A stretch of 64,000 nucleotides of DNA from Escherichia coli. GTDB taxonomy: Bacteria > Pseudomonadota > Gammaproteobacteria > Enterobacterales > Enterobacteriaceae. Position numbers: made by a program. Location: NCBI RefSeq assembly GCF_016026235.1, contig NZ_CP065613.1. One strand, written 5' to 3'. Below are positions 3,001 through 9,000 of the stretch, in pieces. The stretch's first letter is position 1. The number at the start of each line of letters is the position of its first letter.

Positions 3001-6000
3001 CTGAGGGAAACTTAATACCAGCTTTTGTTCACTGAAGTCGAAATGGCTTGAGGCCTGGGGAATGATTTCGTCAAACGGCACGCAGGCTTCGGCAGGCACC
3101 AGATTGAGGGCCGGAAAGCTTTCAACGCGCACGCCCATCTCTGCCAGTTGCGTCCGGCTAAGGCAAGGCACAAGGGATTCCCCCATCGCTTTGCGCTGTG
3201 CTTCTGTGGCCTCTTTAAATTCCAGTGTGCGGGTTTCCATTCTCTGTTCATTGACGTAAACAGAGACACGATAGATGCCGGGTAACTGCTGTTCCTGGCC
3301 TTTTTCGAACATCGTTAAATCGACATGCTGGCCCACACCCTGAACGTCCTCCAGGAATTTGGGGTTAAACTTTCCGGCATGTGCAGAAAACGTGCTGGCA
3401 ACAGCAACCGCCACCACAGAGATAGAAAAGGAAGAAAAAGTACGTGAAACGGTCTTCCGTGACATTGAGCAATTTCTCCTGAAAAGGTATTAATCAATCA
3501 ACATTTTTAGTCATCATTTCCGCTGACGATCCAAAGTCATTGATAGTGTTATATTTAATCTTCGAAACGCTACCTGCCCCAGCGGGTAATGTAATATTTA
3601 ATGACCCTTTTGCGGGTACCATGCCGGCTTTTTCAATTTCTTTGTCATTCGCAAAAAATTGATTAAAGGTAATATTAAAAACGGTGGGGTTATCGACACG
3701 GATCTGATTACCGCTACGCGTAAATCGCAGTTCGTTTGGCGCGGTTTTTACATCACCCTGTAACCCTGCCGGGCGATAAAACAGTTTGATGCGGGTGCGA
3801 ACAGCAATCTGTAATACATTTTTGTTTTCGCTGTCGTCACTTTTAGACGGAATGGCTTTCACATTAACCCAGTAGACCGATTCGCGATCCTGCGGCAGGC
3901 CAGGGGTGGTATTTACAATACGCAATATATTGTTTTTTCCAGGATCGAGCCTGAACAACGGCGGGGTAATTATAAACGGTGTTTTTTTGCTGCCCGCGGC
4001 ATCATCCACCCAGGACTGGATCAGAAACTCTTCCGTCTTACTTTTATTCTGTACGGTCAGCGAGGCTTCTTTCTTACTGCCATCATAAATCACACGGGTA
4101 GCACTAAGCCCAACGCCCCCCGCCAGAACTGACTGGGAGAGGAACAGAGACAGAGCCAACGCAACAAATTTACTTTTCATCATTCGATCCATGAATTTTG
4201 ACGACTAATGGCGGCAATTACGCCGCCATGGGTAAAACAGACGATTACTCGTAAGACAGGTTGAAATCGACCTGCGCATTGCCGTAACCGGTCGTTACCG
4301 TTGCCAGAGTTGAAACGTAGTTGGCGGTAAAGTAGAGAACCGTCTGGCCTTTACTCAGATCAACACTTGCTTTACCACCGTTAAGAGCGACCAGGGTGTT
4401 GCTGTTATCATAAATACCGATACCAACACCTTTCGCCGCACCGGCTTCAGTACTAACAGAAATCAGATCAGATTGATCTGCATCACCGACACCGCTAAAG
4501 CTCACATTGGCTTTTTTCATCGTAGTGGTATCGCAGTCTTCCAGTTTAATTTCGAAGGGTTTTGCCGGGGATTTATCACCAACCGCAGCAAATACAGATT
4601 TTTGTACCTGACCCAACACAACTTCCTGATTCTGAGAGTCAACGGACAGTACGCAAGGTGAATCCACGATCTCGCCTGTAAATTTAACCGTGCCGTCACC
4701 AGACTCTGCTGCGAATACAGTGCCAGAAGTTAACGCCAGTGCGGTTAAGGCAAAAACGACCTTTTTCATGAAAAACTCCATTTAAAAAATTACATTAAAA
4801 AGAAAATCTTGATGTATCAAAATCGACAACTTTGAAGGAAGGATTATACAATTAAATACGAATAATAAAATTATACGAATAATATATTAATAGCACATCC
4901 AATTTTAAATCTTAAAAAAAATCATTGCGTTACATTTTTACATAAAAAGCTATCGTTTATTTTTAGGAATAAATAAATATAAAATATCAATTAAACAAAA
5001 CAAAAACATTCACCACACAAATAATAAGATAAAATATTTTCATTTTTATTCTTTAAAATGTAATAAAAAAGGAGGATTTCCTCTGAGGGATCCCCAGAAA
5101 ATTTAGTAAACCATTATCATATTGGTATACCGTTGCTGTAGAACTTTCAGCCCTGCGTCAAGTGACAGTGTGTTTAGTATGAGTGGAGAATGTCGAATCA
5201 CATTCTCCGCCAGTTTTAATAACGAGATGACTCGCCTGTGCTTCACTGTATTTGCCTGATATTTATGATGTATCCCTTTGTTTTCCAGGCTGAAACCGCT
5301 TAACCACATAATGATACTGGCTAATGTTGCGATCAGACTCAATACCGTGACCCGCCCGGATGAATGACTGGCACCAAACCGTAGTCCAAATCCCCAGCGA
5401 GGATTTTTTTCATCCCTGAAATTTTGCTCAATTTGCATTCTACGGCTGTATAATTTCATTACCTGTTTTGGCGAGAACTCAGTACTGTTTGTGAAAATAA
5501 ACCATGGTGATTTCCCGGCAGTACGAGCTTTAGCCGTCACCGATGGTCTGGTTGCTCTTTCCTTCGAGCGTTTAAATCTACGACCTTTAGGCTTACTTTT
5601 ATAAAGATAAAAATGCCCTTCATGTTGTGCATTTTTATCTCGACCCAGCAGGCCTTCACCTAAATAAATTGCTGTCGTTGATGCTTTTGTGCCTGAGTCC
5701 GACACCTTTTCCCAGCCATTACCAACATTGTAATAATGATTGCCCAGTACCCGGCAAATATAGGTCCAGCCACGGGAGCGGAGCTGTTGGAACCATCGCC
5801 CCTGAAAACCGGCATCTGTAATAACAATGACATCAGTCCCGGGGGAAAAGCACTCAGCAAGCGATTCCAGAAAACGCTCATGTACATCTGCATTCGCTGT
5901 CTGTGATGATGGAACGACACAACTCATCAACGGTAAAGAACGCCCGTCACATGCCAGGCTTGCCCGCAAAAGCTGAAAACGAGAGGCATGATAAGCACTC

Positions 6001-9000
6001 CAGTCAATGAGTATCACAACACGAGACATTCCCCGCGTAATCTTTTGGGTAATTCGCTGAAAAATGGTGGAAACCTCATTTTGCAAATGTCGATTCCCCA
6101 ACAGTCGATCCACCCGCTTTATTTTGTTTTTAACTGATGCCGTACCGGTTAAATGACGCCCGATACTGGTAAGTGTGAGGGAAGCGCCATTTATTACAGC
6201 ATTAGTTGCGTCAATCAGTGATTTTTGACGGTAAAGATGCAAAGGGGCCAGTATGTTGTTAAGGAAATTTTGGCATAATGAACGTGCAGGCATAGTGGTG
6301 ATCTCCTTGAAATTGTTAGCACAATCAATTAGATCACATCTCACTATGCCTGTCTTGTTTTCTGGGGATTCCTCAGAGGATTTCCTCCCCCTTTCGTTCA
6401 AAATCTGTAGTTTCTGGCTAAATATGCGCCTCACGCAATACTTTCTGCTCTGGCTGACGAATCGTCGTAGAAAGCGCCAATGACAGAATCAGCAGAGCAA
6501 AGATGACGTAGAACGTCACATAGAAGCCGCCAAACAGTGAGGCAATAATCGAACCACAAATGCTACCGATACCGAAACCGAGGTAAATCACACCGTAGTT
6601 TTTCGCCAGGTTATTGAGGCCGAAGAACTCACTGACCAGTGACGGAAAGACGGTAATAGTGCCGCCAAAGTTAAATGCCACGCAGGCAATCGCTGCAAAG
6701 AACATCACTGCATTCAATGGTGCAAACAGCAGGGCCGCCATACCCACCAGCGAAATTACCTGACCAATGGTGATAACACGGATACGGGCGATTTTGTCAG
6801 ACAGAATGCCCAGCACCAGACGACCTGAAAGGTTAGCAATAGAAATAACCGTTACTGCGTTGGCTGCGGAAATTGCATCAAGATGCGCCAGGCTCTGAGC
6901 AATATCTTTCGCCACACCAATCACATACAGACCGCTCATGCAGGCAGTAAGGAACATCACCGCTAACATCCAGTACTGCGGTTTACGCATCGACTCTGCC
7001 AGCGTGTAATCTTTCTCCACTACGCCATTGCTGGTTTTCACTTCCTGTTTTGGTGCGTCTTTCATTAACGTTGCGCCGAAAACAATCATCACCAGCGCAA
7101 TCGCTCCCCAAATCACAAAGGTTTTTTCCAGACCGACCGTTTCCAGCAGCTGCGTGTCGATAAATTTGAAACCCAGGCTACCCAGACCATAAGAACCGAT
7201 AGCGAACGCGGAGATCAGACCTTTACGCTCCGGGAACCACTTCACGCAGTTAGAGAGCGTCAGCAGGTAACCCGCGCCATCCGCCAGACCGACCAGCACA
7301 CCGGCGCTTAACCACAGCATCATCAGGTTGTCAGAATGCGCTGTCAGGAAGAACCCTAATCCCAGCAAAATGCCGGAAGCGATGGTGACGCGTTTAACAC
7401 CAAAACGTTCCTGCAATTTGCCCGCAACAGAAGACGAAATTGCCAGCCCCAGACTTAACAAGCCGAAAGAGAAAGCGACCTGGCTTACCGGCGCATCCAG
7501 CTTGGCGGAAAGCGCGCCGTTAAACAGGCTCCAGGTATAAACCGACCCCAGCGCAAACTGGGTAATGATAGTACCGATGAGTGTCAGCCAGCGGGTACGC
7601 TGATAATTTGAAGGTGTCATGGCAGTATTCCTGCAGTAATAAAAAGGAAAAATCTCTGCCGACAACCATAACGAAGTGCACTTTATGCCTGGGGAAAAAC
7701 GGCATGAAATGCCATCAGAACGGAATGAAATGCCTTAGTTCAGGAATGAATGACGCGACAATTATTCACCAAATTTATTATTTGGTAAGTTAGCACCCAC
7801 TATCGCCACAACTATTGTTATCCAATGGTTTCAATTGTGATTGTTACGTTAAAATCTGGCACTAACCCCCATCGTATACAGATAATCGCTATTGTTAGTG
7901 GTATTTTCTGCCTGAGATAGCGCGGCATAGGCGGCAATATTTTGATTGAGCAACATATCAGCGCCTACGGTGACATCCAGCCAGTTGCCGTTCTGGTTTG
8001 TCGCCGTCATCCGGCTCAGGCCTGATTGCGCCTTCCAGATATTCTCGCCAAATTGCTGGTTATAGCTGATTTGCGCCCAGGGTCGGAGATCGCCAAGCCG
8101 GGAGTCAACACGCCAGCCTAAGGTACTCACGCTGGCATGCCATAACGGATCGGTCAGCGTGGTAGTACTGTCGCCAAACTCGTTATACATCGAGGTGGTT
8201 GTGCCATCGTAATGTAATGCCGCGACCGGGCCAGTTGTAACCTGTTCATATAAAGGAAAATTCCAGCCCATACTCATACTGCTGGTCACATCCACAGGGG
8301 TTTCTTCCGCCAGATTGACTTCCAGTCCCAGCGCCCTTTGGCTACTTTGAATACGTTGCGACAAAATATCGTTGTAATCAGGTTGATGATCACTATCCCA
8401 GGTGTAACGCTCTGTGGAATGCCCGGGTTGCGTATCAACGATATATTCTTGTTGCCAGGCGTAAGCTGTGTTGAGAAAAAAGGCACTGATTACCACACTC
8501 GCCAGCAGGCTTAGCTGCCAGCGACCACCGCTTTTTTTTATGATCATTAACACGACTCCAGGGAAGAGCCGAATTCGGCAATATTATTGTCATTGTATGA
8601 AGGATATCGGGCATAGTAGCCCTGTATTAAATATTGACTTTTTCACCGATGCGTCAAGAAAAGCGGCTGAAATTTTTACGATCGGGTACATAGCGAGGGA
8701 AAGTATGGAACGTTGCGGCTGGGTGAGTCAGGACCCGCTTTATATTGCCTACCATGATAATGAGTGGGGCGTGCCTGAAACTGACAGTAAAAAACTGTTC
8801 GAAATGATCTGCCTGGAAGGGCAGCAGGCTGGGTTATCGTGGATCACCGTCCTCAAAAAACGCGAAAACTATCGCGCCTGCTTTCATCAGTTCGATCCGG
8901 TGAAGGTTGCCGCAATGCAGGAAGAGGATGTCGAAAGACTGGTACAGGACGCCGGGATTATCCGCCATCGCGGGAAAATTCAGGCAATTATTGGTAATGC

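What the first reader, a model, noticed from the sequence alone, without database searches (positions are those of the whole stretch)
5073..6386. Both target duplications share a GGAYTYCC core
aGGATTTCCt and gGGACTCCCc have the same eight-position pattern at the same offset within the 10-bp duplication, hinting at a target preference. Only two sites are available, so this is weak.
Basis: seen in the sequence. Interest (0 to 1): 0.2.

Follow-up and report, generated by a model that had tools for sequence, protein, structure and literature searches.

The report
ISEc60 targets GGGG-AT-CCCC palindromes

Summary
Two identical 1,294-bp copies of ISEc60, an IS10-like member of the IS4 family, lie at 5083-6376 and 59029-60322. 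They are flanked by the 10-bp duplications AGGATTTCCT and GGGACTCCCC. Both reconstructed empty sites occur uninterrupted in other E. coli genomes.

I collected 98 non-redundant junctions from E. coli, Shigella and E. albertii chromosomes and plasmids, metagenomes, and close relatives in Kosakonia and Erwinia. They give a strong symmetric target, 5'-G|GGG-WWWW-CCC|C-3':
- G at 73-87% of the four distal positions.
- C at 72-85% of the three proximal positions.
- An A/T-rich centre.

The duplication is 10 bp, or 11 bp when the centre has five bases. The exact motif GGAYTYCC fits only 7 of 98 junctions and is not enriched in the window.

A weight matrix built without the window's sites ranks the two real insertion points 2nd and 5th of 61,372 positions.

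The preference resembles the published IS186 target GGGG(N6/N7)CCCC. ISEc60 and IS186 even occupy the same two hot spots, although their transposases show no meaningful similarity.

Verdict: a new member of a known kind, of modest interest.

The parts
5083..6376 (-). ISEc60 copy A, 1,294 bp; the transposase reads on the minus strand
   Evidence: Identical to copy B. 100% identical to elements that PGAP annotates as 'IS4-like element ISEc60 family transposase'.
5073..5082 (.). Left 10-bp target duplication of copy A, AGGATTTCCT
   Evidence: The empty site is present once in other genomes.
6377..6386 (.). Right 10-bp target duplication of copy A, AGGATTTCCT
5083..5101 (+). Terminal inverted repeat of copy A at the 3' end of the transposase gene, CTGAGGGATCCCCAGAAAA
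   Evidence: Matches the other end at 18 of 19 positions. It resembles, from memory, the IS10 CTGAGAGATCCCC end.
6358..6376 (-). Terminal inverted repeat of copy A upstream of the transposase gene, CTGAGGAATCCCCAGAAAA on the minus strand
5103..6293 (-). Transposase gene of copy A (396 aa plus stop)
   Evidence: Translation. Pfam PF01609 DDE_Tnp_1 at E 1.8e-20. NCBIfam NF033591 at 360 bits against a cut-off of 152. The Y-2-R-3-E-6-K motif is visible as YSRRMQIEQNFRDEK.
59029..60322 (-). ISEc60 copy B, 1,294 bp, identical to copy A
59019..59028 (.). Left 10-bp target duplication of copy B, GGGACTCCCC
   Evidence: The empty site is present once in other genomes, including FDAARGOS_943.
60323..60332 (.). 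Right 10-bp target duplication of copy B, GGGACTCCCC
59049..60239 (-). Transposase gene of copy B
   Evidence: Identical sequence, offset by 53,946 nt from copy A.

Best explanation
The two duplications are the footprints of two independent insertions of ISEc60. ISEc60 is a 1,294-bp cut-and-paste insertion sequence of the IS10 subgroup of the IS4 family. It selects a short symmetric target, 5'-G|GGG-WWWW-CCC|C-3'. The two transposon ends join to the two target strands 10 bp apart, just after the first G of the G-run on each strand, so the inner 10 bp are duplicated. When the arms are separated by 5 bases instead of 4, the stagger can be 11 bp.

Shown: the element, its ends, the duplications, the empty sites, the consensus, its predictive power, use of the same site in both orientations, repeated independent hits at the same sites, and the 10/11-bp duplication lengths.

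Inferred: a transposase dimer in the transpososome reads one GGGG half-site per protomer. The A/T-rich centre is favoured because the captured target must be bent, as established for Tn10/IS10. The element's own terminal C...G restore the full G-duplication-C motif at both junctions. An occupied site therefore remains a target, which explains the tandem copies.
For: Identity and family:
- 100% match to annotated ISEc60 elements.
- PF01609 and NF033591.
- 36% identity over 93% of its length to IS10A/ISVsa5 transposases, E about 4e-64.

Target consensus from 98 non-redundant junctions:
- G at -11, -10, -9 and -8 in 72, 85, 74 and 74 of 98.
- C at -3, -2 and -1 in 79, 71 and 83 of 98.
- A or T at -6 and -5 in 82 of 98 each.
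- G or C at -12 in 89 of 98.
- Chi-square P from 1e-26 to 1e-43 at the arm positions.
- The same pattern appears for ISEc60 proper (n=60) and for relatives at 85-88% identity (n=38), and from either end of the element.

Cross-validation: a matrix trained on 94 junctions from outside the window ranks site A 2nd and site B 5th of 61,372 positions. Rank 1 is the neighbouring register of site A.

Rarity: GGGGNNNNCCCC occurs once in the 64-kb window, at the left junction of copy B, where the last C is the element's own first base.

Empty sites: 100% matches in other genomes.

Duplication length among distinct full copies: 10 bp in 30, 11 bp in 5, no matching duplication in 10.

Repeated hits: the F-type plasmid site GGGG(A/T)AAATCCCC and the chromosomal ydcA site carry insertions in both orientations, with 10- or 11-bp duplications.

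Tandem copies: they are separated by exactly one duplication (L002, L167, L168).
Against: - No transposition experiment was done. All sites come from sequenced genomes, so they have passed natural selection and some may share ancestry despite de-duplication by flank.
- Copy A (AGGATTTCCT) and several other sites depart from the consensus at one to three arm positions, so this is a preference, not a requirement.
- The A-rich position 16-17 nt outside each end (54 of 98) is not explained by the model.
- Whether the terminal C and G belong to the element or to the duplication cannot be decided at sites flanked by G...C. It is decided only by the 26 of 98 junctions where the outside base is not G.
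Confidence: 0.93

Rival explanations
1. The shared GGAYTYCC core is a coincidence between two unrelated 10-mers, and ISEc60 inserts without sequence preference.
For: With only the two sites in the window the similarity is weak. P is about 0.02 for at least 6 of 10 identical positions. GGAYTYCC is not enriched in the window, with 8 found against 6.3 expected.
Against: 98 non-redundant junctions give arm positions with P down to 1e-43. A matrix trained without the window's sites places both real sites in the top 5 of 61,372 positions.
Confidence: 0.01
2. The conserved bases are mis-assigned ends of the element, which would be longer than 1,294 bp, rather than target DNA.
For: The element ends in C...G and the flanks are usually G...C. 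At many sites one or two more bases could therefore be read as duplication or as element.
Against: Both empty sites carry the full 10-mer once, uninterrupted, in genomes without the element. The centre of the duplication differs from site to site. The base outside the duplication is not G at 26 of 98 junctions, while the element's termini stay constant.
Confidence: 0.02
3. The pattern is produced by selection after random insertion. Only insertions in harmless places such as terminator or REP-like hairpins survive, and such places happen to be GC-rich palindromes.
For: Several sites are obvious stem-loops between genes. Examples are AAAAAACCGGGGAATTATCCCCGGCTTTTTT (L005), the dnaJ-hokC hairpin (L010) and GCGCGGGGAAAATCCCCGCGC (L002). 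Flanks are A-rich at -16/-17.
Against: - The motif is in a fixed register to the nucleotide relative to the element's ends, which selection on location cannot produce.
- Complementarity between the two sides falls to chance by 3-4 bases outside the duplication: 75%, 42%, 29% and 25% at offsets 1-4.
- The polarity is strict, G-arm 5' and C-arm 3'. Relatives about 50% identical use C-first or CGC/GCG palindromes.
- Some insertions lie inside genes, for example a split usher gene (L144) and a split phage sheath gene (L154).
- New copies insert into the duplication next to a resident copy.
Confidence: 0.04
4. The transposase recognises an extruded hairpin or cruciform structure rather than base sequence.
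For: The target is palindromic with a 4-5 nt A/T-rich centre. Some hot spots have long stems.
Against: The average palindrome does not extend beyond about 12-14 bp. A CCCC-N4-GGGG palindrome would form an equivalent hairpin but is not used by ISEc60, whereas relatives with the same terminal repeats do use it. IS4-family transposases are known to capture duplex target DNA; that point is established knowledge, not tested here.
Confidence: 0.05

Closest known systems
IS186 target preference, 5'-GGGG(N6/N7)CCCC-3' (Lee et al. 2016, PMC5009759; SaiSree et al. 2001, which I could not read)
   Same: - Palindromic G4/C4 arms around a variable centre, insertion in either orientation, a rare motif and repeated hits at a few sites.
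- The ISEc60 site in L010 is the same dnaJ-hokC hairpin GGGGATCACTCCCC that holds IS186A in E. coli K-12.
- At the F-type plasmid hot spot an IS186 copy (98.9% identical to K-12 IS186A over 958 nt) abuts the ISEc60 duplication.
   Different: The ISEc60 spacer is mostly 4, sometimes 5, bases rather than 6-7. The duplication takes in three bases of each arm and is 10-11 bp. The centre is A/T-rich. The two transposases show no meaningful similarity: the best BLASTP hit is 22 residues at E 0.008. The shared habit is therefore convergent or very ancient.
IS10/Tn10 symmetric hot-spot consensus NGCTNAGCN with a 9-bp duplication (from memory: Halling and Kleckner 1982; Bender and Kleckner 1992)
   Same: Same subgroup. 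The transposase is 36% identical to IS10A/ISVsa5. The size is 1,294 bp with 5'-CT ends, as listed for the IS10 subgroup (PMC2266710). The terminal repeats are similar. The target is symmetric and read as two half-sites.
   Different: The consensus differs: GGGG-W4-CCCC, not GCT-N-AGC. The duplication is 10-11 bp, where the subgroup is listed as 9 bp.
Sister elements with the same 19-nt terminal repeat core in Photorhabdus, Xenorhabdus, Pluralibacter, Serratia, Pragia and E. coli E69
   Same: Same terminal repeat core CTGAGGRATCCCCAGAAAA. The transposases are 50-52% identical. Duplications are 9-10 bp. Targets are GC-rich palindromes.
   Different: The arms differ by lineage. Examples are GC|CCC-N4-GGG|GC and CCC|CGC-N3-GCG|GGG in Photorhabdus, and GG|GGC-N4-GCC|CC in Pluralibacter. 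Some are short non-autonomous copies of 204-343 bp.

Membership tests
ISEc60 (as named by NCBI PGAP) | Near-identity to elements annotated 'IS4-like element ISEc60 family transposase' | tested here: met
   100% identity over 1,294 of 1,294 nt to many annotated copies. The exact protein is in a cluster with that name.
ISEc60 (ISfinder reference entry) | Identity to the ISfinder reference sequence and its recorded ends and direct-repeat length | not testable with these tools
   ISfinder is not available here. The two papers that mention ISEc60 say nothing about its target.
IS4 family | DDE transposase of the DDE_Tnp_1 type, encoded by a single ORF without a frameshift | tested here: met
   PF01609 at E 1.8e-20. 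NF033591 'IS4 family transposase' at 360 bits against a cut-off of 152. One 396-codon ORF.
IS4 family | Y-(2)-R-(3)-E-(6)-K signature (PMC2266710) | tested here: met
   YSRRMQIEQNFRDEK is read directly from the translation.
IS4 family | Target duplication of about one helical turn | tested here: met
   10 bp in 30 distinct full copies and 11 bp in 5.
IS10 subgroup of IS4 | Size 1,200-1,350 bp and 5'-CT ends (PMC2266710, Table 1) | tested here: met
   1,294 bp, with ends CTGAGG...CCTCAG.
IS10 subgroup of IS4 | Transposase related to IS10 | tested here: met
   36% identity over 93% of its length to IS10A/ISVsa5 transposases, E 4e-64 to 5e-63.
IS10 subgroup of IS4 | 9-bp direct repeats (PMC2266710, Table 1) | tested here: not met
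   Duplications are 10 or 11 bp, never 9, among 35 distinct full copies of ISEc60 with intact duplications. Some sister elements do give 9 bp.
IS186-type target selection | GGGG and CCCC arms in that polarity | tested here: met
   IS186 and ISEc60 share two sites.
IS186-type target selection | Spacer of 6 or 7 bases (PMC5009759) | tested here: not met
   Both arms sit in a fixed register with a 4-base centre, or 5 bases with 11-bp duplications.
IS186/IS421 element family | Transposase homologous to InsL | tested here: not met
   The best BLASTP alignment covers 22 residues at E 0.008.

The most novel reading that the evidence does not exclude
ISEc60 is one branch of a clade of IS10-like elements in Enterobacterales. 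Its members keep an identical 19-nt terminal repeat core but have each evolved a different palindromic target: GGGG-W4-CCCC, GCCC-N4-GGGC, CGC-N3-GCG or GGGGC-N-GCCCC. One of these has converged on the target of the unrelated IS186 closely enough that the two elements compete for the same few genomic sites. If so, the clade is a natural series of specificity swaps between transposases 50-88% identical. It could be used to map the still unknown target-recognition residues of IS10/Tn10-type transposases.
Probability: 0.5. Interest if true: 0.45.

Novelty: new member of a known kind. Interest (0 to 1): 0.3.

Why it matters
The result gives a usable rule for where ISEc60 lands. ISEc60 has expanded to dozens of copies in some enteroinvasive E. 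coli and Shigella-like genomes, with at least 38 places in one chromosome, and it sits on many F-type plasmids. The rule predicts insertion points to within a few positions in 60 kb. It explains recurrent insertions that could otherwise be mistaken for shared ancestry in strain typing. It also explains the tandem copies. Finally, it shows that two unrelated transposases, ISEc60 and IS186, use overlapping rare sites. The broader biology, a symmetric target preference in an IS4-family element, is well established, so the conceptual gain is small.

Tried and rejected
- **Repeat look-ups.** The look-up of encoding contigs on the exact transposase returns only 10 places per query. Extra look-ups with variant proteins gave diminishing returns: P0006 gave 2 places, and P0003 gave mostly element-only Logan contigs with no flank.
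- **High-copy chromosome.** A 42-kb fetch around the FDAARGOS_943 hit yielded only one copy. I did not try to tile that chromosome.
- **Structures.** The Protein Data Bank sequence search found no related solved structure. Tn5 transposase is too distant by sequence, so I attempted no structural argument about target contacts.
- **IS186 paper.** The original IS186 consensus paper (PMC95536) is not held. I used Lee et al. 2016 instead.
- **Long hairpins.** I considered that targets are long hairpins or terminators. I rejected this as the general rule because complementarity decays to chance 3-4 bases outside the duplication.
- **12-bp duplication.** I considered a 12-bp duplication with a 1,292-bp element. 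I rejected it because the outside base is not G at 26 of 98 junctions.
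Full report
**What is at the coordinates.**
- The window holds two identical 1,294-bp elements, at 5083-6376 and 59029-60322.
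- Each has near-perfect 19-nt terminal inverted repeats: CTGAGGGATCCCCAGAAAA at one end and CTGAGGAATCCCCAGAAAA at the other.
- Each carries one 396-codon gene on the minus strand. Its product has the DDE_Tnp_1 domain (PF01609, E 1.8e-20). It passes NCBIfam NF033591 'IS4 family transposase' at 360 bits against a cut-off of 152.
- The DNA is 100% identical to elements that RefSeq annotates as 'IS4-like element ISEc60 family transposase' in E. coli, Shigella dysenteriae and E. albertii.
- The transposase is 36% identical over 93% of its length to IS10A/ISVsa5 transposases.
- Size, 5'-CT ends and the YREK signature fit the IS10 subgroup of the IS4 family as defined by De Palmenaer et al. 2008 (PMC2266710).

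**The observation.**
- Copy A is flanked by AGGATTTCCT (5073-5082 and 6377-6386). Copy B is flanked by GGGACTCCCC (59019-59028 and 60323-60332).
- I rebuilt each empty site as left flank plus one copy of the 10-mer plus right flank. Both match other E. coli genomes at 100% over 300 of 300 nt in one piece. Site A lies downstream of yhjX and site B lies next to yibL.
- On two sites alone the resemblance is weak. P is about 0.02 for at least 6 of 10 identical positions. GGAYTYCC is not over-represented in the window, with 8 hits against 6.3 expected, 4 of them the duplications themselves.

Sources were:
- Exact-protein look-ups of the transposase and three variants.
- A scan of species-representative genomes for the 19-nt terminal repeat core.
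- A scan of metagenome contigs with a pattern specific to ISEc60-type ends.
- Twenty annotated regions of plasmids and chromosomes, 18 of them fetched for new sites and two for the IS186 comparison.

After removing junctions whose flank was another copy, and merging junctions with the same outer flank, 98 non-redundant junctions remained. Sixty are from ISEc60 proper. Thirty-eight are from relatives at about 85-88% identity in Kosakonia, 'Candidatus Erwinia dacicola' and metagenomes.

**The target.** Positions are read towards the element's end, with -1 adjacent to it.

| Position(s) | Preferred base | Count out of 98 |
|---|---|---|
| -11, -10, -9, -8 | G | 72, 85, 74, 74 |
| -7 and -4 | A or T | 69, 69 |
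| -6 and -5 | A or T | 82, 82 |
| -3, -2, -1 | C | 79, 71, 83 |
| -12 | G or C | 89 |
| -16 | A | 54 |

- Chi-square P at the arm positions runs from 1e-26 to 1e-43.
- The pattern is the same for ISEc60 proper and for the relatives, and from either end of the element. The target is therefore the palindrome 5'-G|GGG-WWWW-CCC|C-3', with the inner 10 bp duplicated.
- For ISEc60 proper, the first centre position (-7) is A in 31 of 60 junctions and the last (-4) is T in 36 of 60, which gives G|GGGAWWTCCC|C.
- Among 45 distinct full-length copies, 30 have a 10-bp duplication. Five have 11 bp, all at sites with a five-base centre such as GGGGATTTTCCCC. Ten have unmatched flanks, which indicates later recombination between copies.
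- The terminal C and G belong to the element rather than to a 12-bp duplication, because the base outside the duplication is not G at 26 of 98 junctions.

**Predictive test.**
- I trained a half-site weight matrix on the 94 junctions that do not come from the window. I scored every position of the window after removing both copies and one copy of each duplication.
- The true position of copy A ranks 2nd and that of copy B ranks 5th of 61,372. Rank 1 is the neighbouring register of site A.
- The strict motif GGGGNNNNCCCC occurs once in the 64-kb window, against 0.54 expected. That one occurrence is the left junction of copy B, and its last C is the element's own first base.
- In the empty site the arrangement is GGGG-ACT-CCCC, so spacers of 3 to 6 bases are tolerated, as also seen at GGGGATCACTCCCC.

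The GG and CC at duplication positions 2-3 and 8-9 are part of the real motif, and A at position 4 is a mild preference. The 'YTY' centre is only A/T richness. The exact motif fits 7 of 98 junctions. The strongest positions (1, 10 and the two bases just outside) were missed because copy A has A...T at positions 1 and 10.

**Evidence that this is targeting, not survival or ancestry.**
- The motif is in fixed register with the ends of the element.
- Complementarity between the two sides drops to chance 3-4 bases outside the duplication: 75%, 42%, 29% and 25%.
- Some insertions split genes.
- The same sites were hit independently. A site on F-type plasmids...GGCGGGG(A/T)AAATCCCCGCC..., carries ISEc60 in both orientations and with 10- or 11-bp duplications. 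So does the chromosomal hairpin next to ydcA.
- Tandem copies are separated by exactly one duplication (L002/L003, L167, L168). In L167 the arrangement is flank-GGGATTTTCC-IS-GGGATTTTCCC-IS-GGGATTTTCCC-flank. That is what a second insertion into the duplication beside a resident copy would give.
- This follows from the anatomy. The element ends in C...G, so each junction still reads G-duplication-C and the target is copied rather than destroyed. The final point is inference.

**Mechanism.**
- Shown: the anatomy, the consensus, the symmetry, the stagger, and the reuse of sites.
- Inferred from established knowledge of Tn10/IS10 and Tn5 transpososomes: a transposase dimer holding both ends captures duplex target DNA. 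Each protomer reads one GGGG half-site, and the A/T-rich centre eases the required bend. The two 3'-OH ends attack 10 bp apart, or 11 bp when the half-sites are one base further apart.

**Comparison with what is known.**
- IS186 has the published target 5'-GGGG(N6/N7)CCCC-3', is used in either orientation, and has few sites and repeated hits (Lee et al. 2016, PMC5009759).
- ISEc60 behaves alike but with a 4-5 base, A/T-rich spacer and a 10-11 bp duplication that includes three bases of each arm.
- The two elements meet at the same sites. The ISEc60 copy in L010 sits in the dnaJ-hokC hairpin GGGGATCACTCCCC, which holds IS186A in K-12 MG1655. At the F-plasmid hot spot in NZ_CP050863.1, an IS186 copy 98.9% identical to K-12 IS186A abuts the ISEc60 duplication.
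- Their transposases are not detectably related beyond a 22-residue stretch at E 0.008.
- Within its own subgroup ISEc60 differs from IS10 both in consensus and in duplication length, 10-11 bp against 9 bp.
- Only two papers in the library mention ISEc60, and neither discusses its target. I could not consult ISfinder.

**Verdict.** The thing is an ordinary insertion sequence with a strong, symmetric, previously undescribed (as far as I could search) target preference of a known type. I file it as a new member of a known kind, of modest interest. The more interesting lead is the wider clade described under the novel case and the items noticed in passing.

Noticed in passing
L010 (GCA_031665325.1) versus L185 (NC_000913.3 15300-16800); L184 (NZ_CP050863.1 211500-214700): ISEc60 and the unrelated IS186 use the same rare sites. 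ISEc60 in L010 sits in the dnaJ-hokC hairpin GGGGATCACTCCCC, which carries IS186A in K-12. On an F-type plasmid a partial IS186 directly abuts the ISEc60 duplication GGTAAATCCC.
   Followed up: partly
L002/L003 (GCA_031665585.1 chromosome), L167 (CP091400.1), L168 (NZ_CP011417.1): These loci hold tandem ISEc60 dimers separated by one duplication. The chromosomal dimer in L002 has the inner spacer GGTAAATCCC, the same as the spacer of the plasmid dimer in L168 (NZ_CP011417.1). It is flanked by a different matching 10-mer, GGAAAATCCC. This suggests the 2,598-bp dimer moved as a composite unit.
   Followed up: partly
L011-L107 (genome-contig scan): The 19-nt terminal repeat core CTGAGGRATCCCCAGAAAA is shared by elements about 50% identical in protein in Photorhabdus, Xenorhabdus, Pluralibacter and E. 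coli E69. Their targets are different GC-rich palindromes: GC|CCC-N4-GGG|GC, CCC|CGC-N3-GCG|GGG and GG|GGC-N4-GCC|CC. Duplications are 9-10 bp.
   Followed up: partly
L048-L053 (Pragia fontium), L064 (Serratia sp. H1w), L044-L046 (Serratia marcescens), L035-L043 (Xenorhabdus griffiniae): In Pragia fontium and Serratia sp. H1w, short non-autonomous elements of 204-343 bp carry the same terminal repeats. They are inserted in longer repeated palindromes that resemble REP sequences, for example cgttatcCCCGCTTTTGCGGGgataacg. In S. marcescens only one junction per locus was seen, also in CGC...GCG palindromes. In X. griffiniae many junctions of the Photorhabdus-type element share diverged copies of the flank aagatgcgtcttatatctcCCCGC...
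   Followed up: no
Junction positions -16/-17 in all ISEc60-type sites: A is enriched 16-17 nt outside each end (54 and 46 of 98), which means T on the opposite flank. This is not explained by the palindrome. It could reflect transposase contact, a bending preference, or the A/T tracts of terminators.
   Followed up: no
L006, L008, L142, L146, L147, L153, L183 and others: Ten of 45 distinct full copies have unmatched flanks. Some half-sites recur with different partners, for example GGGCGATCCT in L006 and L142. This points to rearrangements by recombination between ISEc60 copies in the high-copy genomes.
   Followed up: no
Site B of the window is empty there, so the window comes from a different strain.
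   Followed up: no
L030 (E. coli E69, CP089930.1): A 1,295-bp sister element about 50% identical in protein shows only a 7-bp matching duplication, CTTATG G, inside GCCCCTTATGGGGGC. Either its duplication length differs or its ends are offset.
   Followed up: no
window 63042-63851; window 43116-44588 versus 52178-53686: There are three tandem copies of a roughly 255-bp unit at 77-79% identity near the right end of the window. There is also a pair of diverged direct repeats (71-79% identity) about 9.1 kb apart.
   Followed up: no
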